A stretch of DNA of 64,000 bases from Flaccisagitta enflata (taxonomy: Eukaryota): contig OZ231126.1 in the NCBI GenBank assembly GCA_965153355.1, positions 11,470,001-11,534,000 on the forward strand. The letters are read 5' to 3'. This document shows positions 4,484 to 57,944 of this stretch, one piece after another; position 1 is the first letter of the stretch; each line of letters begins with the position of its first letter. The notes below the pieces were generated by a model. That model was not told the origin of the DNA, made no database searches, and was given only the letters and a program-made list of their open reading frames with translations. Position numbers and translations under genes: made by a program.

Positions 4484-4607
<124 letters not shown>

Positions 4608-4924
4608 CGTTGTTGTTGTTGCAAAAGAGATAAGATGGATGGCGCGTCACGTTTTTTTTCTCGCGAATTACGGCACACAGAGGTCATCTTTTTCGTTTTG
4701 TGGTCGATTCCAAAAATAGTTGGCGATGGTCACTGAATAAGAATGACCCTCTGACTCCTCCTCCTCCTCTCCATCCTCGTCCCACTGACACCTCCACATC
4801 CTCCTCATTCTCCTCCTTCTCCTTCTTCTCCAACTCAATTTAACCGCAATTTCATTTCTCTTCCTTGTTATTTTTTCATCAGCAAAAATAGACAACAACA
4901 ACAACAACAACAACAACACAGGCA

Positions 4925-5420
4925 TAACCCGTGCGCGTGCGTGAGAGCGTCGCGTCGGGTGAAATGTCTCGTAGAAGGTAGACGCATGAGGGCAACTTCA
5001 AAGTGCACATGCGCCCAATTTTCAAATAATCCTTTTTTTTTTTAAATGTGTTTTTCTTTTTAATAAATGTAGACTATTTCTGAGTGTAAGTGCACCCTTG
5101 TGCGCACGGGTCTCACGCAGATACATGCGCATTGCTTGTCTAACTCAGATTTGAACTTAAACTGAGATGCTTTGGTGTCTTGTTTATTTTGATTGTGTGA
5201 GATTGCGACACCGCGTGTTTGCGTTCCGTTTACGTTTACGAAGCGTTATGTTGCGTTGCATTGCGTTGCATTGCGACGCCACATCTTTATCCAAGTCCTG
5301 ATGTCAGAAACTGACCCTCTCCTTGTGTGTACCAACTTGGAGCGCAGGCGCGAACCGAAGACAAAAATGAAGAACTGGGTACTTCCGATTCGCGCGCAAT
5401 TGACGAACGAACAAACGAAC
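4925..5420. promoter_or_regulatory. CpG-rich, promoter-like region with NRF1-like GCGC motifs
   Basis: Cluster of gcgcgtgcg, gcacatgcgc, catgcgcat and gcgcaggcgc in non-repetitive CpG-rich sequence; no associated CDS identified. Confidence 0.3.
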
Positions 5421-5615
5421 GAGTAGAATGAATTTTCAATGAACGTTTGATCGAGGGAAGGAATTCATTTCCAACGAATGAACGAAGTCGAAGGAGTGAA
5501 AAAAAAATTGAGAGAGATCTTGGTTTTTTTTTTTACCGGCGTCAACATGTAAGAACGCCGAATCTTCCATAGAAAATGGTGCCAGGTGGGACGCCTTTTA
5601 ATTTCTCATTATTGT

Positions 5616-5675
<60 letters not shown>

Positions 5676-6718
5676 AATGACACGATGACTTTCCTTTTTT
5701 CCATGATCGGAACAAAAAAATGTTGAAAGGAAAATTTTCTCTTTAACTTTTTCGTGGAGACAAAGAGAAGGAGAAAATCATTGAAACGGTTTGTTTGTTT
5801 GTTTGTTTTTTTTCCTGTACGTTGTTCTATTTTGATTAGTGAGATTTTTCCTCAAAGGGGGGCGAAAGAAGTACGATTGTGAGATTTGACTTATGTTCTC
5901 GCTTATTCAGCGTTAACACTGTTTCCCGTTAACAGCGTTTTTCGCTAAAAACGTTTTCCGTTAACAGCGTTTTTCATAAACAGCGTTTCTCGTTGACAGC
6001 GTCTTTTTTTTCTCATGACAGCGCCAAGAAGACAAAACTCCGCTTCCACGATTTTGACGAGGAACAAAAAATCAACTGGAGATTCTTATTTCATCTTCAG
6101 GGGTCAACAGAAACTAACTTTTTCTTCCAAAATTTGAAATTAGCTTTAAAGACAAAGGAGAATGAGCGAGACGCGCAAAAAGAGAGATGTAAAAGTAGAC
6201 TTTTGGAAAGTCTTTTCCGATTGTTTGTTTTTTTACTTTGTCTCAGCTCAATTTTGTCTTTTGTTTTCGTTTTTTGTTTTAGTCTTTTGTTTTCGTCACG
6301 TTCTTTTGTTGGAGCCGTTTGAGACAGTTCCTTTCTCACCGCCACTTATTTCCTCTCCTCCTCCTCCTCCTCCTCCTCCTCCTCCTCCTCCTCCTCCTCC
6401 TCCTCCTCCTCCTCCTCCTCCACCACCACCACCTTCGCCCCCTCCTTCCGGCACCACGTCCGCGCTTCCTTCTTTACTGCTTCCGTTTCCGCTCAGCACT
6501 TTCCTGTAAGCGGAGATATCGGCCAAAACTTCAAACACTTCATTTTCCTCTTCTTCCTCGTCTCCTTCTTCTTCGGTCGAGTTGGCGGCTATGACTGAGC
6601 CCGCGATGGCCCCAACAGCCACGATAGCCTCGTCCAACGAAGACTGTTTGGCTTTGACGAGCAATTTGTGAGCGCCGGATATTGACGGGATATCCACGGA
6701 TTTTTGGGGTCCATATAG

Positions 6719-6795
6719 TCAGATGGACCCTGGCTTGGTTTCTTGCCTCTCGAGCTTGTGGGTGGAGTGGTGGTTTCTGCCGTTGTGGGCGCCGC
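6719..6795 (-). CDS. NHL-repeat protein putative last coding exon (GGAHNGRNHHSTHKLERQETKPGSI*), with a possible readthrough extension to 6296
   Basis: ttttctcaacag acceptor; the phase-1 junction G|GC fits the upstream donor; TGA at 6721-6719; the same frame stays open to the TGA at 6298-6296. Confidence 0.6.
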
Positions 6796-7393
6796 CTGTT
6801 GAGAAAACTTGGGTGTGTCAATAGGATGTGATTATGTAATTTGCCATTTTTTAAGTGCGTCCTCGCACTTCTATAAGAGGTCATGTCCGTCTGTTGGTTG
6901 GTCTGTCTGTAACGCAAACGGAATCAAACGGAATCAAACGTAACCAAACGGAATCAAACGCTTAAAACGGTCAATTCTGTCGTCATTCTTCATTTCTATC
7001 ACCTCTCATGCCTTACCACACTAATTTTCATTCTGTTTTTCATTCATTCGTTCATTCATTCATTCATTCATTCATTCATTCATTCATTCATTCATTCATT
7101 CATTCATTCATTCATTCATTCATTCAAAACGTTCATTTACAAATTCTTAATCAAGCGAGGTGCACTTATTGGCCATAACTAGGCCTTGTTTTTGTCTAAG
7201 AATTAACATTATTATCGAAATCCTTCAGCATCAGTTTTTTTTTAAATTGCATTTGTCTCCCTTTGTTTCACAACATTAACATTTGGTCCCTCATTTGTGT
7301 GTATTGTTGTGTTCTGGGTTTTGGGATACAATCATCAATCAAAAAAATAAAGACTTTTAACAAAATTGGGCACAGTCCTTTAAAGTACACATA

Positions 7394-7570
7394 CAGTTGA
7401 ACCCCGCTCTAATGGACCCGCCACCAACGGAATTCCGCCTATAACAGATGTAAATCTATGGTTCTTTCAAATTAATTCCTTTTATTTCCTTTGTTGAAAA
7501 TATTAGAAGATCGCCTATAACAGAAAAAAATTGTTAGTCCCCTGAATACGATTAGAGCAGGGTTCAACTG
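7394..7570. mobile_element. pogo/Tigger-like MITE (second, more decayed copy at 8610-8785)
   Basis: TA|CAGTTGAACCCCGCTCTAAT...ATTAGAGCAGGGTTCAACTG|TA. Confidence 0.85.
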
Positions 7571-7854
7571 TACTTAAAAGACAATATTAATTCAAAGAAA
7601 AACCAAAAGATAAGCAAATTTTTAAAAGACAAAGATGCAAAAAGTCTTGTTCACTATCAACTAAAAAAAAACTTGTGCAGATTGACACACATACACAGGC
7701 GCTCTTGCCATGGCTGCCTCCCCGTGGCTGATCATGGTCATGCTCAACTGGAGATGCTCAACATGCTCAATGCTCATTTGCACATTGAAACACACACACA
7801 TGTACATCCAAACCTGTCATAGCTGATTTGCCGCAGCTGATCATGGTCATGCCC

Positions 7855-8059
<205 letters not shown>

Positions 8060-8149
8060 CACACACATCCAAACTTGACATGGCAGCCTCTCCATTGCTG
8101 ATCATGGTCATGCTCATTTGCATACTGATACACACACACACAATTGTAC

Positions 8150-8375
8150 CTGCCATGGCTGCTTCTCCATTGCTGATCATGGTCATGCTCATTTGCGTGA
8201 CCATCTTGGGGGTTTCCGGGGGAGCTGCGTTGGTGTAGAGGTATTTCTTGATGCATTGTTGTTGAGGGTAGCAAATGTAGCAATGGCCTTGGTCGTCGGT
8301 CACGATGCCCGTGGGCTCGGTCAACCCGGCCTCGCCTTTAATCGTTGAGATCAGGGGACCTTCGTAATTGTAAAC
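8150..8375 (-). CDS. NHL-repeat protein exon: VYNYEGPLISTIKGEAGLTEPTGIVTDDQGHCYICYPQQQCIKKYLY...AAMA
   Basis: cag acceptor at 8378-8376, 226 nt (phase 0 to phase 1), G|gtacaa donor. LTEPTGIVTDDQGHCYI resembles a final NHL blade. Confidence 0.85.
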
Positions 8376-9363: not shown

Positions 9364-9969
9364 TTAATCGTTGGTGGTCTGAGCCGAGGTCGAGGGTGCA
9401 CCCGAGAAATGCTTTCCTAATGGCCGAGGTCAGATATTGATTTTTCGCAGGTCAAAAACGGTTTCAATATGATTATGAAGAAAATCTGTGGTCGTATCCA
9501 CGCAACTCCATCCGTCCGTCCGTCCGTTCGTCCGTCCGTCCGTCCGTCCGTCCGTCCGTCCGTCCGTCCGTCCGTCCGTCAGTCCGTCCGTCCATCCGTC
9601 CGTAATACAAAATACAAAATACAAAAAAAAAAAAGATACAAAATAGGGCCAATAAGTGCGCCTCGCTTGATTAAAGATTTGTGAATGAACGTTTTTGATG
9701 AGTGAATGAATGAATGAATGAATGAATGAATGAATGAATGAATGAATGAATGAATGAATGAATGAATGAATGAATGAATGAAAATGAATGAGGTAAGGCA
9801 TGAAAAATGATAGGAATGAAGAAATACGACATAATCAGCCGTTTTGCACATTTCAAACGTTTGCTCGACCGACCAACCAACCAACCGACTAACCAACCGA
9901 CCGACGGACACGACCTCTTATAGAAGTGCGAGGACGCACTTAAAAAGAAAATTGGAAACGGTGAAGTAC

Positions 9970-10064
9970 CTGAATTTGGTTTTTGTCGTTATCGCTGACG
10001 AGAATGTGGAGTTGATGATCCACGAAAACTCCATCCGGACGACCGAACAGACCGGCAGCCTGAC
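9970..10064 (-). CDS. NHL-repeat protein (TRIM-NHL-like), internal exon: GQAAGLFGRPDGVFVDHQLHILVSDNDKNQIQ
   Basis: ttcag acceptor, phase-1 start, CAG|gtac donor at phase 0. The peptide matches the NHL blade pattern F-x-x-P-x-G-V-x-V-D...I-L-V-S-D-x-x-x-x-x-I-Q and joins in frame to VYNYEG of the next exon. Not in the ORF track. Confidence 0.85.
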
Positions 10065-11203
10065 CTGAACATGAAGAAGGGCAAAGAGAGGGAGGAGGGA
10101 AAATGAAAATATGAGGGAAACGTCATCCGTTCGGCTGAACAGACCGGCAGCCTGAGCTGAAGATGGAGAAGGGATGACAGAATGGTGAAAATATGAGGGA
10201 ACAAGGCACGGATACACGGCCATCAGTCGCGGACGGGTGGGCAGGGGCGGAAATGCGCGTTTTACCGATTTTCGACTCAATGGTTACGGACGGACGGACG
10301 GACGGACGGACGTACCGACGGACGGACGGACGGGCGGACGGACAAAGCCTCTTATAGAGTTGCGTGTCCGCAACTAAAAAGAGAGGGAGGAGGGAAAATG
10401 AAAATATGAAGGTCCATCAGTCTGGCTAAACAGACCGGCAGCCTGACCTGAAGATGGAAAAGGGATGACAGAATGGTGAAAATATGAGCTAGACAAACTA
10501 CACCAGTAAGACCAAACAGACCGGCAGCCTGACCTAAAGAGGGAGCAAAGGAGTGGGAAGGGGAGGAGGAAGGAGGGAAATATGAAAATATGAGTGAGAG
10601 AAACTTCTTCAGTATCACCAAACAGCCTAATCTGAGGATGCGGAAAGGGAGTGGAAAGAGTAGGAAGGAGAAAGGAGAGATGAATAAATGGATTAGAGAA
10701 ACTTGATAAGGGCGGCCGAACAGACCGACATCTTGACAAACTGACAGCAGTGTGGTTAGGGTGTGGAGAGGGTGTGGGTATGGCGTAAGTGTAAGGAGCA
10801 AGTGGATGGTGATAATAGAGAGAGAGAATCGGTGAATAGGGACTTGATTTTATTGACAGACAAACAAATGAAGGAGAAAATAGTTAAACAGATACTTTAA
10901 CCAATCACAAGATACATATAGGCAGGAGTACAAACAGAGGAAATGTGCCAGGATAACTTTTCTTGCGGGGGGGGGGGGCAAAATGGAGAAGAAAAGAAGC
11001 CCTCCTTTAACTTTAACCTCTACTTCAATTTCTTGTCTCTCTCCTAGCTCTTTATTTTCTTTTTCTGGCTTTTACTGTTGCGCTTGTCTTCCCTCTCTTA
11101 AGCTTCTCTTTCGCTTCTCCCGCCGTCGCTCTCAGACATTGCTTTTAGCTTCTACTCTCTTAAACTTTCAAAGAAAACATAAACTTAGTTGTGTCTCGAC
11201 GGG

Positions 11204-12640
11204 GAAAGATGATGACAGTAACAGCACATGAAAGTTGCGGCATGGGAGATGAAAGATGATGACAGTTACAGCACATGAAAGTTGTGGCATGGGAGGTGAA
11301 AGATGATGACAGTAACAACAGAAAAAAGTTGCTGCATGGGAGATGAAAGATGACGACAGTAACAGCACATGAAAGTTGTGGCATGGGAGGTGAAAGATGA
11401 TGACAGTAACAACAGAAAAAAGTTGCTGCATTGGAGGTGAAAGATGACGACAGTAACAGCACATAAAAGTTGTGGCATGGGAGATGAAAGATGATGATAG
11501 TTACAGCACATGAAAGTTGCGGCATGGGAGATGAAAGATGACTACAGTAACAGCACATGAAAGTTGTGGCATGGGAGGTGAAAGATGATGACAGTAACAA
11601 CAGAAAAAAGTTGCTGCATTGGAGGTGAAAGATGATGACAGTAACAGCACATGAAAGTTGTGGCATGGGAGGCGAAAGATGATGACAGTTACAGCACATG
11701 AAAGTTGTGGCATGGGAGGTGAAAGATGATGACAGTAACAGCACATGAAAGTTGCGGCATGGGAGATGAAAGATGGTGACAGTTACAGCACATGGAAGTT
11801 GCGGCATGGGAGGTAAAAGATTATGACAGTAACCGCACATGAAAGTTGCGGCGTGGGAGGTGAAAGCTGATGACAGTAACAACAGAAAAAAGTTGCTGCA
11901 TTGGAGGTGAAAGATGATGACAGTAACAGCACATGAAAGTTGTGGCATGGGAGATGAAAGATGATGATAGTTACAGCACATGAAAGTTGCGGCATGGGAG
12001 ATGAAAGATGACTACAGTAACAGCACATGAAAGTTGTGGCATGGGAGGTGAAAGATGATGACAGTAACAACAGAAAAAAGTTGCTGCATTGGAGGTGAAA
12101 GATGATGACAGTAACAGCACATGAAAGTTGTGGCATGGGAGGCGAAAGATGATGACAGTTACAGCACATGAAAGTTGTGGCATGGGAGGTGAAAGATGAT
12201 GACAGTAACAGCACATGAAAGTTGCGGCATGGGAGATGAAAGATGGTGACAGTTACAGCACATGGAAGTTGCGGCATGGGAGGTAAAAGATTATGACAGT
12301 AACCGCACATGAAAGTTGCGGCGTGGGAGGTGAAAGCTGATGACAGTAACAACCGAAGAAAGATGCAGCAATGGCGGTGAAACATGATGACAGTCACAGC
12401 AGAGGAAAGTTGCAGCAATGGCGGTGAAAGATGATGACAGTAAGAGCACATAAAAGTTGCGGCAATGGCGGTAAAGATGATGACAGTAACAGTTGCAGCA
12501 ATAGCAATGGATGACAGTTCCAGCACAAAAAAGAAGCGACATTGGCAGTGAAAAATGATGGCAGTTACAGCACAAGAAAGTCACGGCAACGGCGGTGAAG
12601 GATGATGACAGCAACAGCAGAAGAAAGTTGCGGTGAAAGA
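11204..12640. repeat. 47-bp minisatellite (~30 units) with a 470-bp higher-order repeat
   Basis: Unit gaaagatgatgacagtaacagcacatgaaagttgtggcatgggaggt; variant units recur at an exact 470-bp offset (identical ORFs at 11501 and 11971). Confidence 0.9.
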
Positions 12641-41347: not shown

Positions 41348-41993
<646 letters not shown>

Positions 41994-42523
41994 CTGAACA
42001 GAGGTATCAATGAACAAACAAATGAATGAATGAATGAATGAATGAATGAATGAATGAATGAATGAATGAATGAATGAATGAATGAATGAATGAATGATAA
42101 GATGAAGCACTTTCATCCAATCTTGACGCTCTTCCCATGATGTGGCCGACAACCAGAACAACGAAATGAATGAATGAATGAATGAAGAAAAGAGTAGTTG
42201 AATGAATGAATGAATGAATGAATGAATGAATGAATGAATGAATGAATGAATGAATGAATGAATGACTGAATTAAATCATTACACTCTTCGCATGAAGTGG
42301 CCGACAACCTGAACATAGGAATCAATGAACAAATGAATGAATAATTGAATAACTGAAAAAAATGAATGAATGAATAGATAAATGAATGATTGAAGAAATG
42401 AATGAATGGATGGATGGATGAATGATTGTTTGAACGAAAAAATGACTGAAAGGATGCCGACACACTTCCCATGAAGTAGCTGAACTGCTTCGGAATGAAA
42501 CGAAGTTCTTGTATTAAGGCTGA

Positions 42524-43155
42524 TTTGCATAATGCAGTTCAATCAATGTCATTGAATTGACAGACAGAATATTTAGAAAAGAACTTTTTCAATCGGAGCT
42601 TAAAGACTAAAGAGTGATTCCTTAAGCCTGAGCGAAGAAAGGAGCTAAGAATTCAAAAGAAAACACATAATCATAACTTTCAATGGCTAAAAAGTCAAAA
42701 AATCATCGGCTCGATCCCTATCAAACATTACAGAGCAAATTTCCGATTTGTAAGTGAAATGTGAAAAAAAAAAAAATGAAATGTGAATATTCTATACCCA
42801 CACATGCCGCACTGATCCGTCGATGGTCACGAGGAGTGGGCCCTTGCCTTGCGCCCCCATCGATTTTACCTCATAGCACTGTCGTTCACCTACTCGGCAA
42901 CTCCACCGGCCTTGGATGCAGAGCAAGACCTACTACCCCCAACCCTCCTCCCTATTTATCTTTATTCTGCTCGGAAGATTGGATAAACCAGGCTCTAAAG
43001 GGGAAGGGAATGGGCTGAACGGATGAATGACCTTAGAAATTAAATTTTTCTACGATGAAGAAATGCAAATCATGTTAATCGTGCACGTGTGTATTATTGA
43101 AATAATGAATTATGTTCTCGGGAAACTTTGGGACTGACTCCGAAACTCTGATAGT
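42524..43155. repeat. 632-bp sequence, copy 1 (inverted copy at 45061-45692)
   Basis: Same length; no mismatch seen in the segments compared; identical 85-aa spurious ORFs on opposite strands in the ORF track. Confidence 0.9.
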
Positions 43156-43291: not shown

Positions 43292-43729
43292 ATGTTCTCC
43301 TTGTTTATTCTGTTGCTTAGCAACCGCTACTCGAGAAAAGGAATCAGAAACGCTGCGGCTTCAAATAGATAATTTCAATGCCAATGGAGGAAGAGCTCTA
43401 CTTGGGGTTCTAGAAGATGATTACCTTACTTAGATGATACTAACACAGAAAAACTAACTCATTTGCTAGCTACCTGATATATGATACTATTTTCGAGTTA
43501 CCCAATAACTGCTTTCTGAGCACCTTCTTATTAAAAAAAGATCAACGGTTTCTCCGCATCGCAGAGACCACAAATAAAAAACATAACTTCAAATGTAAAA
43601 AAGAAAACAACAAAAAGCAAACACCCTACCAAAAAAATGCAAAATGATGATTATGTAGCTGTCAAACTGTGATCTAGAGAAAAAAGGAAATTCTTGAGAA
43701 AAAAACGACGTTCAGAAATTAAGAAAAAA

Positions 43730-44236
43730 ATGCCGGATAAACCGGAAGACGGCAAAAACGGCGAAGACGCTGAAAACGCCGGAAATGATGGAAAAGGCGG
43801 AAGTGCCGGAAATGAAGGCGATGACGACGGAAGAACGGAAGTGGATTCCGCCGTCGGCACTCTCATCTCGGTGTTGACGGAAAGTGCCGTCAGAGGAGGA
43901 AGAGCGGGAGAAGGAGGAGAAGAAGGAGGAGGGGATGGAGAAAGAGAAGAAGCAGGTGAGGAAGTGTCTGAAGCTGATCAGTCGAAACCAGATGCAACAG
44001 CGGAAACGGATGACGATAAAAATGCGGATGAGGTTCCAAAAAATGACATTGATACAACGGCAAAGAACGTTGCTGTTGCTTCGCCAGCTGCAGCAACAGC
44101 GAAAACAACGGCGGCAGCAACCGCGGCTGCGGAATCTACAGTGATTTCCACATTAACAACAACAACGATGACATCTTCAACGACAACAACAAACGCAGGC
44201 GAAGCGACTTTTTCGACGCACGCATCTATAGAACAG
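43730..44236 (+). CDS. FHAD1: FHAD1-like coiled-coil protein exon 1 (acidic, Gly/Ala/Thr-rich N-terminus)
   Basis: ATG at 43730 (MPDKPEDG), 169 codons, CAG|gtacat donor, in phase with exon 2. Confidence 0.7.
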
Positions 44237-44525
44237 GTACATAAACGTGAGCGTGTGTAGTTATTTGGCGGACGAATTTAGAATTATGACCCAAATATAC
44301 CCTTCAAGTAACCAGCCGAAGTATGCATCAGACAGTGTGTCTGTCTGTTTTTCTCTCTGTCCGTCTGATTGTTTCCTTGTCTGTCTGTCTGTCTGTCTAT
44401 CTGTCTAAGACTAAGTGCTTGTCTGTACGTTTGTGTTTGTGTGTTTCTGGGCATATGTCACGATACGTACCTGTCTTAATTTTTCTATCAACAATTTGCA
44501 AAATCGCCCCCTTTTCCCCTACAAG

Positions 44526-44833
44526 GTGATGATAAAATCGTTGATGGAGCGGAATTCCGAATTGGAACAGGAATTGGCGGAAGCTCAGCGGAAAGCGGAA
44601 GAAATGAGTCGCAAAGCGGAAGATTTCCGACGGACGAAAGATTCGGAAATTATTTTGGCGAAACGACTGAAGGAATTGGAAGCGGAAGCGGAAGAGTTGG
44701 CAGCGGAAAAAGACAGAGCCATCGCTGCCGCGGAAGAATGTCATAGAGAAGAATTAATCGGTTACAAAGAACAAATACGACAACACTCTTTGACTATTGT
44801 GGCTATGGAAGATAGAGTATCAAGGGCTAACAG
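44526..44833 (+). CDS. FHAD1: FHAD1-like exon 2 (VMIKSLMERNSELEQEL...EQIRQHSLTIVAMEDRV)
   Basis: cctacaag acceptor, AG|gtaaat donor (phase 2); coiled coil with a QHS.TIV.MEDR motif recalled from FHAD1. Confidence 0.85.
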
Positions 44834-44848
44834 GTAAATGAGAACAGA

Positions 44849-45060: not shown

Positions 45061-45689
45061 ACTATCAGAGTTTCGGAGTCAGTCCCAAAGTTTCCCGAGA
45101 ACATAATTCATTATTTCAATAATACACACGTGCACGATTAACATGATTTGCATTTCTTCATCGTAGAAAAATTTAATTTCTAAGGTCATTCATCCGTTCA
45201 GCCCATTCCCTTCCCCTTTAGAGCCTGGTTTATCCAATCTTCCGAGCAGAATAAAGATAAATAGGGAGGAGGGTTGGGGGTAGTAGGTCTTGCTCTGCAT
45301 CCAAGGCCGGTGGAGTTGCCGAGTAGGTGAACGACAGTGCTATGAGGTAAAATCGATGGGGGCGCAAGGCAAGGGCCCACTCCTCGTGACCATCGACGGA
45401 TCAGTGCGGCATGTGTGGGTATAGAATATTCACATTTCATTTTTTTTTTTTTCACATTTCACTTACAAATCGGAAATTTGCTCTGTAATGTTTGATAGGG
45501 ATCGAGCCGATGATTTTTTGACTTTTTAGCCATTGAAAGTTATGATTATGTGTTTTCTTTTGAATTCTTAGCTCCTTTCTTCGCTCAGGCTTAAGGAATC
45601 ACTCTTTAGTCTTTAAGCTCCGATTGAAAAAGTTCTTTTCTAAATATTCTGTCTGTCAATTCAATGACATTGATTGAACTGCATTATGC

Positions 45690-45692
<3 letters not shown>
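45061..45692. repeat. 632-bp sequence, copy 2 (inverted), splitting a (CAA)n array in FHAD1-like intron 2
   Basis: Reverse complement of 42524-43155; (CAA)n on both sides. Confidence 0.9.
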
Positions 45693-57242: not shown

Positions 57243-57618
57243 TTAGTATGTCTTTAGGCCCTTGCGTCTGTTGGTCATTGGATTTGTTTGTCCGTTTATT
57301 TGTTTGTCCGTGCGTCTTTTTGTCGTCACAGGTCAGTTGTTTGCCCAATTGGCCTTGATAACATGTTATCATGAGAGAATTAATATTGGATTCTCAAGAG
57401 GGATAATGCCTCTGGGCTCTTTGTCCCTGTCCTTGTCCCTGTTTTTGTCCTCGCTCTTGTCTTTCTGTGTTTTTTTTCTTTTTCTGTTACCTGCAGATTC
57501 TCAAGAGGGATGAGGCCTTTGAGCTCTTTATCCCTGTCGCTATCCCCGTCCTTGTCGCTACTTTTGTCCCTGTCTCCTGTCTTTTCTGCATTTTTTTTTT
57601 TTTTTTTTTTTTTGTTAC

Positions 57619-57738
57619 CTGCAGATTTTCGAGAGGAATGATGCCTCTGGGTTCTTTGTCTGTCGTGTACTCGAAATAATAGAGGCAATTGTCGTTGAGA
57701 ATGAACCATCTTCGCTTCCAATTCTTCACTCGTCCTCC
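57619..57738 (-). CDS. CYTH1: Cytohesin PH-domain exon: [40 protein letters not shown]
   Basis: tttgcctcag acceptor, CAG|gtaac donor, 120 nt; close match to the cytohesin PH sequence. Confidence 0.97.
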
Positions 57739-57944
57739 CTGAGGCAAAAAAAGGAAAGGAGACATGGTAGAATCTTGCTCTTACGAATTCGTTTCAAGCG
57801 GAAACCCATCTGTAATGGAAAGAAGCAAAAGATTAGTCTATTTTGTTTCCACTTTTGCATTTGTCCTCCCCGAGGAAACAGAACAAGATGCTTTAGAATC
57901 CAATGATTTCAAAAGGTGTTATCTGTACCTTTTTTAGTGACAGG

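What the first reader, a model, noticed from the sequence alone, without database searches (positions are those of the whole stretch)
6296..6795. Candidate programmed stop-codon readthrough (UGA-CUA) adding a 140-aa tail to an NHL-repeat protein
Seen: splicing 8150 to 6795 (phase 1) gives ...KPGSI-TGA(6721-6719)-CTA-TAT, and the same frame stays open for 140 codons to 6296. The extension reads like protein (LLVKAKQSSLDEAIVAVGAIAG, an acidic EEEGDEEEEENEVFEV patch, poly-Gly). Small hairpins are possible just 3' of the stop (ATGGA/TCCGT; GGATAT/ATATCC). Known: UGA-C, especially UGA-CUA, is the leakiest metazoan/viral stop context and is often aided by 3' structure. Inference: two C-terminal isoforms. 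The ORF track starts the extension at an internal GTG and hides this link.
Basis: partly seen in the sequence, partly recalled or inferred. Interest (0 to 1): 0.8.

Follow-up and report, generated by a model that had tools for sequence, protein, structure and literature searches.

The report
Conserved coding tail beyond UGA stop
An animal gene for a small NHL-propeller protein ends at a UGA stop that relatives keep in the same place, yet a conserved 140-codon reading frame follows it, which is the usual mark of ribosomes sometimes reading through a stop (a known phenomenon, not shown directly here).

Summary
On the minus strand the exon ending at 8150 is spliced to 6795. Spliced contigs in 2 marine metatranscriptome runs carry this joint. 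The frame then runs 24 codons to TGA 6721-6719, followed by CTA, and stays open for 140 codons to TGA 6298-6296. Three RNA-library contigs keep TGA-CTA.

New evidence:
- Four of 4 full-length relatives of the NHL protein (337-356 aa) end at the same ...ERQETKPG-x-x motif, although the linker before it varies.
- The extension has 2 true homologues (45-58% identity). They share two conserved blocks held in frame across indels, and both begin 8-10 codons after the stop position.
- No AG lies between the stop and the first conserved block, so splicing cannot bypass the stop.
- No SECIS was found, and the extension has no Met.

Best reading (0.58): functional UGA readthrough adds a disordered acidic/Gly-rich tail with two linear motifs. 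Translation past the stop is not shown. The relatives' DNA, and so their stop context, could not be seen. A polyA RNA run gave no cover. This is a new member of a known kind; interest is modest.

The parts
9967..10065 (-). Exon encoding one NHL repeat (residues 216-248 of relative P0041)
   Evidence: tblastn 100% identity. Pfam NHL E 0.0014 on the ORF piece and 2.4e-9 on P0041. Splice sites read.
8150..8375 (-). Exon with the last propeller blade and the start of the variable linker; 226 nt, ends in phase 1
   Evidence: tblastn 97% identity to P0041 residues 247-317. AG 8377-8376 and GT 8149-8148 read. P0036 is the unspliced genomic reading of this exon.
6796..8149 (-). Intron (GT..AG) holding (TG)n and three decayed copies of the exon's 3' end
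   Evidence: Removed in spliced contigs of runs X2 and X3. Repeats.
6722..6795 (-). Last coding stretch of the standard protein, ending in the conserved ...ERQETKPGSI
   Evidence: The motif is conserved at the C-terminus of 4 of 4 full-length relatives.
6719..6721 (-). First stop, TGA, followed by CTA (6718-6716) and T (6715)
   Evidence: Unchanged in 3 RNA-library contigs. A stop is at the homologous place in 4 of 4 relatives.
6707..6730 (-). Perfect 8-bp hairpin GGGUCCAU/AUGGACCC with the UGA inside its 8-nt loop
   Evidence: Part of both the MFE and centroid fold; arms checked. Loops of such hairpins cover 314 of 64000 window positions. Function unknown; noticed post hoc.
6299..6718 (-). 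140-codon in-frame extension without Met, predicted mostly disordered
   Evidence: Homologues P0001 and P0002. AlphaFold mean pLDDT 49.
6665..6694 (-). Conserved block 1 of the extension: D-IPSISG-x-H-K/R
   Evidence: Invariant columns P11 S12 I13 S14 G15 H17 in alignment A1.
6464..6559 (-). Conserved block 2: acidic run, then NEVF-x-VLADI-x-AYRK ... SSKEGS; predicted helix at residues 59-75
   Evidence: Invariant columns E54-K73 and G77-S85 in A1. Helix with pLDDT about 60-66.
6351..6446 (-). (GGA)n microsatellite read as poly-Gly inside the extension
   Evidence: TRF, 32 copies. Relatives have Gly/Ala/Val-rich sequence here.
6296..6298 (-). Second in-frame stop (TGA) ending the extension
6652..6653 (-). 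First AG after the stop. It is an in-phase candidate acceptor, but it was not seen used and would delete conserved block 1.
   Evidence: AG list: none between 6731 and 6653. Contigs run unbroken across it.

Best explanation
The gene encodes a stand-alone six-bladed NHL beta-propeller of about 340 aa, related to the NHL domains of TRIM2, TRIM3, TRIM71 and Brat. Most ribosomes stop at UGA 6721-6719. A fraction decode this UGA (context UGA-CUA-U) with a near-cognate tRNA and continue for 140 codons. This yields a second isoform with a mostly disordered acidic/Gly-rich tail that carries two conserved short motifs: IPSISG-x-H-K/R, and an acidic run followed by a short helix, NEVFEVLADISAYRK.

Shown: the splice joint, the stop in RNA, a stop at the same place in relatives, and protein-level conservation of the downstream frame.

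Inferred: that ribosomes pass the stop, how often, which residue is inserted, and what the tail does. A docking motif is the likeliest role. The F-x-V-L core after acidic residues resembles an LC3-interaction motif, but that is recalled from memory and untested.
For: 1. The mRNA is real and in this frame. Spliced contigs in 2 of 3 metatranscriptome runs laid carry the 8150|6795 joint, and 3 contigs keep TGA-CTA.
2. The stop is conserved. In P0037's 5-member cluster, the 4 members that reach the C-terminus (P0037, P0038, P0040, P0041; 87-91% identical) all end at ...H-K/R-L/M-ERQETKPG-S/P-I/T, the window's stop position. The linker just before it differs by several indels.
3. The downstream frame is conserved as protein. 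Two homologues with E<=0.01 were found among 49 candidates (P0001 58% and P0002 45% identity). They share two invariant blocks, 41 invariant columns in all. The spacer between the blocks differs in length in all three sequences, yet both blocks stay in one open frame of 109-140 codons.
4. Both homologues begin 8 and 10 codons after the window's stop position, as expected if a stop also lies just upstream in their contigs. No fused NHL+tail protein exists among longer proteins (0 of 648 candidates) or among 1.84 billion representatives (2 true hits of 35, both short).
5. The three variants seen in the contigs (6731, 6665, 6536) are all third-position synonymous changes in this frame, two of them downstream of the stop (codons read).
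6. A splicing bypass is excluded in this sequence. There is no AG between 6731 and 6653, and block 1 starts at 6694. The two GT..AG introns possible inside the exon would shift the frame.
7. There is no Met in the extension and no SECIS (0 of 5 weak Rfam matches in 4500-7000).
8. UGA followed by CUA is the published high-readthrough context (PMC12233894, passages; PMC4359377, listing only).
9. Only 89 of 20000 shuffles of the non-repeat part stayed open.
Against: - There is no direct evidence of translation beyond the stop.
- The DNA behind P0001, P0002 and P0037-P0041 could not be fetched. Their stop codon identity, the CUA context and codon-level selection are therefore unknown, and the linkage of P0001 and P0002 to an NHL gene is inferred only from the window.
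- There are only 2 homologues of the tail.
- P0041's contig (2378 nt) has room for the tail, yet no called ORF from it appeared. This could be a gene-caller miss or a closed frame.
- The polyA RNA run X5 (about 6% read) gave only 9 reads, all on the acidic-repeat segment with loose ends on both sides, so there is no real cover.
- The +7 base is U, not G.
- The region 3' of the stop has no significant fold (z -1.69; 14 of 200 shuffles fold as well).
- The exon is stop-poor: its other frames are open for about 68 and 84 codons. In addition, 32 codons of the extension are a microsatellite.
- RNA contigs cover the extension only to 6447. The last 50 codons were not seen in RNA.
Confidence: 0.58

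Rival explanations
1. Ordinary termination. The protein always ends at ...KPGSI and the 140 codons are 3' UTR. Their openness and similarity to P0001 and P0002 would come from stop-poor GA/GC-rich low-complexity sequence and nucleotide-level UTR conservation.
For: The exon is stop-poor, with other frames open for about 68 and 84 codons and GC 0.56. A microsatellite supplies 32 codons. There is no Pfam family, the fold is low-confidence, and no translation data exist. Of the 35 representative hits, 33 were Gly-rich chance matches.
Against: Two blocks of 6 and about 30 residues are invariant at the protein level. The spacers around them change length only by whole codons, and open frames of 109-140 codons persist in three lineages at 45-58% identity. 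The variants are synonymous. Only 89 of 20000 shuffles stayed open.
Confidence: 0.17
2. The tail is translated, but not by readthrough. It would come from a separate transcript or a near-cognate start (for example GTG 6697-6695, where P0002's call begins), or from a splice form not present in the contigs.
For: Gene callers start P0002 at the position of that GTG and P0001 two codons later. An in-phase AG exists at 6653-6652.
Against: There is no ATG in the frame. The only transcripts seen are spliced from the NHL exon and run unbroken through the stop. No AG lies between the stop and block 1, and the 6651 acceptor would delete block 1. Initiation about 1 kb into an mRNA, after a long ORF, is inefficient in animals (general knowledge).
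Confidence: 0.1
3. The stop is recoded at the RNA level: A-to-I editing turns UGA into UGG (Trp) in a share of transcripts.
For: It gives the same two isoforms. An 8-bp perfect stem flanks the stop. Contigs drop rare variants, so they cannot exclude it.
Against: The A lies in the hairpin loop, not in a duplex, and the stem is far shorter than typical ADAR substrates (general knowledge). No G was read at 6719 in 3 contigs.
Confidence: 0.07
4. UGA encodes selenocysteine.
For: An in-frame conserved UGA followed by a conserved downstream frame.
Against: No SECIS match at E<=10 in 4500-7000, which covers the exon and 1.8 kb downstream including the poly(A)-like signals at 5602, 5188 and 5064. There were 0 Rfam gathering matches in the whole window. 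No Cys or redox motif lies nearby, and there is no Cys-bearing fused relative.
Confidence: 0.02

Closest known systems
Conserved stop-codon readthrough genes of Drosophila and Anopheles (PhyloCSF-type candidates; PMC5100048 passages read; PMC3840789 and PMC13278127 seen as listing and abstract start only)
   Same: A conserved stop is followed by an in-frame, protein-like conserved extension of tens to hundreds of codons. The extension is disordered, and splicing and SECIS alternatives are excluded.
   Different: The evidence here is at the protein level from 2 plus 4 relatives, not a codon-aware multi-genome alignment. The host is an unnamed marine animal of unknown phylum. PMC5100048 finds abundant readthrough only in Pancrustacea.
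Mammalian UGA-CUA-G readthrough genes (LDHB, MDH1, OPRL1 and others; PMC12233894 passages read; PMC4359377, PMC5133446 and PMC4207609 as listing only)
   Same: UGA followed directly by CUA.
   Different: The +7 base is U, not G. The extension is 140 codons rather than a few, and it ends in no peroxisomal tripeptide. The C-terminal ends differ among the three tails.
Selenoprotein UGA recoding
   Same: An in-frame UGA with conserved coding sequence on both sides.
   Different: No SECIS, and no Cys homologues.
NHL domains of TRIM2, TRIM3, TRIM71 and Brat
   Same: The body of the protein matches these propellers (PDB 7qrw E 4e-28, 7b96 3.7e-27, 8j72 2.4e-25, 1q7f 1.6e-22) and Pfam NHL/DUF5128/SGL.
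   Different: The relatives' ORFs start with M-YTSIVQVP and are only 337-356 aa, so there is no RING, B-box or coiled-coil part. The tail after the propeller has no counterpart in the matched chains.

Membership tests
Functional (programmed) stop-codon readthrough | The stop lies in frame in a real, correctly spliced mRNA | tested here: met
   The joint 8150|6795 is in contigs of 2 runs, and TGA is kept in 3 contigs. The frame is fixed by the NHL homology.
Functional (programmed) stop-codon readthrough | The stop is conserved at the homologous position in relatives | tested here: met
   Four of 4 full-length relatives end at the same motif. This is shown at the protein level only; which stop codon they use is unknown.
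Functional (programmed) stop-codon readthrough | The downstream in-frame region is open and evolves like protein | tested here: met
   Two homologues have invariant blocks kept in frame across indels. Three of 3 variants are synonymous. Shuffles: 89 of 20000 stayed open. No codon-level test was possible.
Functional (programmed) stop-codon readthrough | Leaky stop context (UGA-C, best UGA CUA G) | tested here: inconclusive
   The window has UGA CUA U, which matches 6 of the 7 motif letters. The context in relatives could not be tested.
Functional (programmed) stop-codon readthrough | Alternatives excluded (splice bypass, SECIS, separate start, editing) | tested here: inconclusive
   Splice bypass is excluded. 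SECIS is absent. There is no ATG. Editing and near-cognate initiation were not testable.
Functional (programmed) stop-codon readthrough | Ribosomes or peptides beyond the stop | not testable with these tools
   No ribosome profiling or proteomics was available. The polyA run X5 gave no cover.
Functional (programmed) stop-codon readthrough | Stimulatory RNA structure shortly 3' of the stop (present in some members, not required) | tested here: inconclusive
   Region z-score is -1.69, and 14 of 200 shuffles fold as well. The one strong stem encloses the stop rather than following it.
Selenoprotein | SECIS element in the 3' UTR | tested here: not met
   No SECIS family among the 5 matches at E<=10 in 4500-7000.
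NHL-repeat six-bladed beta-propeller | Match to NHL and propeller profiles and to solved NHL domains | tested here: met
   Pfam DUF5128 3e-11, NHL 2.4e-9, SGL 1.2e-6 on P0041. PDB TRIM3 NHL 4e-28. Only the last two repeats are encoded in the window.

The most novel reading that the evidence does not exclude
A stand-alone TRIM-NHL-like propeller of a marine animal, possibly outside Pancrustacea where conserved readthrough is rare, uses a conserved UGA as a switch that adds a docking tail. The control element would be unusual: a perfect 8-bp hairpin holding the stop in its loop, next to a conserved pre-stop peptide (ERQETKPGSI). The conserved pre-stop sequence, hairpin and CUA would together set the readthrough rate, rather than a downstream structure.
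Probability: 0.1. Interest if true: 0.55.

Novelty: new member of a known kind. Interest (0 to 1): 0.36.

Why it matters
If true, the gene makes two proteins from one mRNA: a bare RNA- or protein-binding propeller, and a version with a conserved docking tail. Standard annotation would miss the second, because it ends the gene at the first stop.

It would add a comparatively supported readthrough case in an uncultured or non-model marine animal. It would also give a compact test case (UGA-CUA-U, stop inside a hairpin loop, conserved pre-stop peptide) for what sets readthrough levels. In itself it is one more instance of a phenomenon already catalogued in hundreds of insect genes (PMC5100048, passages).

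Tried and rejected
As the tool advised, I laid the part beside it, 6100-7850.
- Run X5 (polyA RNA, raw reads, about 6% read) gave 9 reads, all partial matches to the acidic segment 6549-6568. This gives no information on expression, editing or read ends.
- The small word shares (0.09-0.16) of runs X1-X4 say nothing about habitat beyond what the lay showed.
- The own genome is not held.
- 'Longer' proteins with the tail: 0 of 648 candidates.
- Representatives search with the stop read as W: 35 hits. Motif regexes matched 2 of them. I read 7 of the other 33, and all were Gly-rich low-complexity proteins.
- Pfam on the tail, on the read-through product, and on P0001 and P0002: no family.
- ESM Atlas on P0041: only NHL clusters, with no useful taxa.
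- Rfam at gathering threshold on the whole window: 0 matches.
- Earlier findings of this scan: nothing by place, sequence or words.
- Rejected: an internal intron from GT 6728 to AG 6653 or 6645. It would remove 77 or 85 nt, shift the frame and delete block 1, and no contig shows it.
- Rejected: a variant nuclear code with UGA as sense. Long conserved exons in the window contain no TGA, and the neighbouring gene is a typical animal cytohesin.
- No complex-prediction job was sent, because no binding claim is made.

Full report
**What is in the sequence.**
The window is animal-like nuclear DNA. It is rich in microsatellites and has GT-AG introns. A neighbouring minus-strand exon is almost identical to the cytohesin-3/GRP1 PH domain (E 1.5e-23).

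On the minus strand, an exon at 8375-8150 encodes the last blade of an NHL propeller and ends in phase 1, followed by GT at 8149-8148. AG sits at 6797-6796 and the next exon starts at 6795. After the split codon, 24 codons ending ...KPGSI run to TGA 6721-6719. The next codons are CTA TAT, and the frame stays open for 140 codons to TGA 6298-6296. The extension has no Met.

**Is the junction real?**

Contigs of two marine metatranscriptome runs (X2 record 9, 567 nt; X3 record 16, 243 nt) run from inside the last exon up to 6796/6795. They then jump to 7706-7746 with 4 mismatches in 41 letters. That target is one of three decayed intronic copies of the exon's own 3' end. The true exon end, 8191-8151, differs from the copy by exactly 4 letters. 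The 30 letters that run on in X2 match the true upstream sequence at 28 of 30 and do not resemble the copy's flank.

So spliced RNA carries the 8150|6795 joint. Because the intron is removed, these contigs come from RNA, not contaminating DNA. A third contig (X1, 338 nt) runs unbroken over 6447-6765. All three contigs keep TGA-CTA.

Their only listed differences from the window are at 6731, 6665 and 6536 (plus-strand T>C, T>C, C>T). With n=2 downstream this is suggestive only.

The polyA run X5 gave no real cover: 9 partial reads on the acidic segment, from about 6% of the run.

**Chance.**
The extension minus its (GGA)n microsatellite (108 codons) stayed open in 89 of 20000 shuffles. Two facts temper this. 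The exon is stop-poor (GC 0.56), with its other two frames open for about 68 and 84 codons. And 32 codons of the extension are a microsatellite.

**Relatives of the NHL protein.**
The NHL exon finds P0036, a 152-aa unspliced genomic reading that is 100% identical, and P0037, a 351-aa spliced ORF. P0037's cluster has 5 members. Four are full-length ORFs of 337-356 aa that start M-YTSIVQVP and are 87-91% identical. One is a 62-aa exon fragment.

All 4 full-length members end at ...H-K/R-L/M-ERQETKPG-S/P-I/T, exactly where the window has its TGA. The linker between the propeller and this motif differs by several indels and many substitutions. So the stop position and the ten residues before it are conserved while the neighbouring sequence drifts.

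P0041 matches Pfam DUF5128/NHL/SGL and the solved NHL domains of TRIM3, TRIM2, TRIM71, Thin and Brat (E 4e-28 to 1.6e-22). It is a stand-alone TRIM-NHL-like propeller.

**Relatives of the extension.**
A word-indexed search of proteins of similar length found 2 hits among 49 candidates: P0001 (109 aa, 58% identity) and P0002 (139 aa, 45% identity). Their alignment with the window (A1) shows two invariant blocks:
- IPSISG-x-H;
- an acidic run followed by NEVF-x-VLADI-x-AYRK ... GN-x-SSKEGS.

The spacers and the Gly-rich rest differ in length and sequence, yet both blocks stay in one open frame in all three sequences. That is how protein-coding sequence behaves, not UTR.

Both relatives begin, with the gene caller's M, 8 and 10 codons after the window's stop. 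This is what one expects if a stop lies just upstream in their contigs too.

No fused NHL-plus-tail protein turned up. Among longer proteins, 0 of 648 candidates scored. An exhaustive HMMER search of 1.84 billion representatives, using the read-through translation with the stop read as W, gave 35 hits, and only P0001 and P0002 carry the motifs. The other 33 lack them by regex, and I read 7 of those.

**Alternatives tested.**
- Splicing. On the minus strand there is no AG between 6731 and 6653, while conserved block 1 starts at 6694. No canonical acceptor can therefore skip the TGA and still encode block 1. The in-phase AG at 6653-6652 would delete block 1. The two possible internal GT..AG introns (from 6728) shift the frame, and no contig shows any of these forms.
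- Selenocysteine. No SECIS family appeared among the 5 weak Rfam matches (E 0.48 or worse) in 4500-7000.
- Separate initiation. There is no ATG in the frame, but a near-cognate start or a separate transcript cannot be excluded.
- A-to-I editing of UGA to UGG cannot be tested with contigs.
- Variant code. This is unlikely for an animal, and long conserved exons of the window hold no TGA.

**Signals.**
The published high-readthrough context is UGA CUA G (PMC12233894, passages read). Here it is UGA CUA U.

The 131 nt around and after the stop fold no better than 14 of 200 shuffles (z -1.69). The fold does contain a perfect 8-bp stem, GGGUCCAU/AUGGACCC (6730-6707), whose 8-nt loop holds the UGA. 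Loops of such non-simple hairpins cover 314 of 64000 window positions, or 0.49% (42 hairpins).

This was noticed after the fact, and the stem must melt before the ribosome reaches the stop. I leave it unexplained.

**The tail.**
AlphaFold on A1 gives mean pLDDT 49, which fits disorder. It predicts a modest helix over residues 59-75, which is block 2, and a low-confidence helix over residues 13-39.

The hydrophobic AIVAVGAIAGSVIAA stretch is not conserved; the relatives have Gly/Ser there. It is therefore not a conserved membrane anchor. The three C-terminal ends differ, so there is no conserved terminal targeting signal.

**Verdict.**
A confirmed mRNA, a conserved stop, a conserved in-frame protein-like extension and a leaky context, with the splice and SECIS alternatives excluded, form the standard comparative signature of functional readthrough. 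This is the signature used for Drosophila and Anopheles (PMC5100048, passages read). I put readthrough at 0.58.

What is missing:
- any evidence of translation past the stop;
- RNA cover of the last 50 codons.

One ambiguous point runs against the reading. P0041's 2378-nt contig has room for the tail, yet no ORF from it appeared.

The phylum of the host is unknown. PMC5100048 reports abundant readthrough only in Pancrustacea, so the case would be more notable outside that clade. It is a new member of a known kind.

Noticed in passing
window 7676-8195 and 10010-10736: Both exon boundaries of the NHL gene are tandemly copied into the adjacent introns. There are four 75-nt copies of the donor end of exon 8375-8150, the true one included (60-80% alike). 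There are four to five copies of the acceptor end of exon 10065-9967. One intronic copy captured the spliced contigs' alignment. Some copies keep AG|GT-like boundaries and could act as decoy splice sites.
   Followed up: partly
window 10066-64000: Residues 1-215 of the relatives' NHL protein have no tblastn match (E<=1) anywhere in the window, although residues 216 to the end map at 97-100%. The upstream exons must lie more than 54 kb away, beyond a same-strand cytohesin-like gene, or the locus or assembly is incomplete here.
   Followed up: partly
window 42524-43155 and 45061-45692: A 632-nt inverted repeat, 100% complementary, with 1905 nt between the arms. It encloses plus-strand coiled-coil ORFs at 43673-44834. 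It could be a recent inverted duplication, an invertible segment or an assembly fold-back.
   Followed up: partly
window 11204-12492: A 47-nt minisatellite of 27 copies, 86% matches. It gives long open frames on the minus strand inside the presumed NHL-gene intron.
   Followed up: no
window 6848-6902, 7135-7193, 7391-7455: Short intronic segments reach high depth (up to about 190) in the metatranscriptome contigs, with loose ends on both sides. They look like pieces of dispersed, transcribed repeats rather than part of this transcript.
   Followed up: no
window 57490-57780 (-), 41351-42112 (-): A cytohesin/GRP1-type PH-domain exon nearly identical to mammalian cytohesin-3 (E 1.5e-23). There is also a likely terminal exon with a long poly-Gln run.
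   Followed up: partly
window 6549-6568: All 9 reads of the polyA run X5 matched only the GAA/GAG-rich acidic segment, with a 'goes back 20' joint and unrelated flanks. Another transcript of organism A carries a similar acidic repeat.
   Followed up: no
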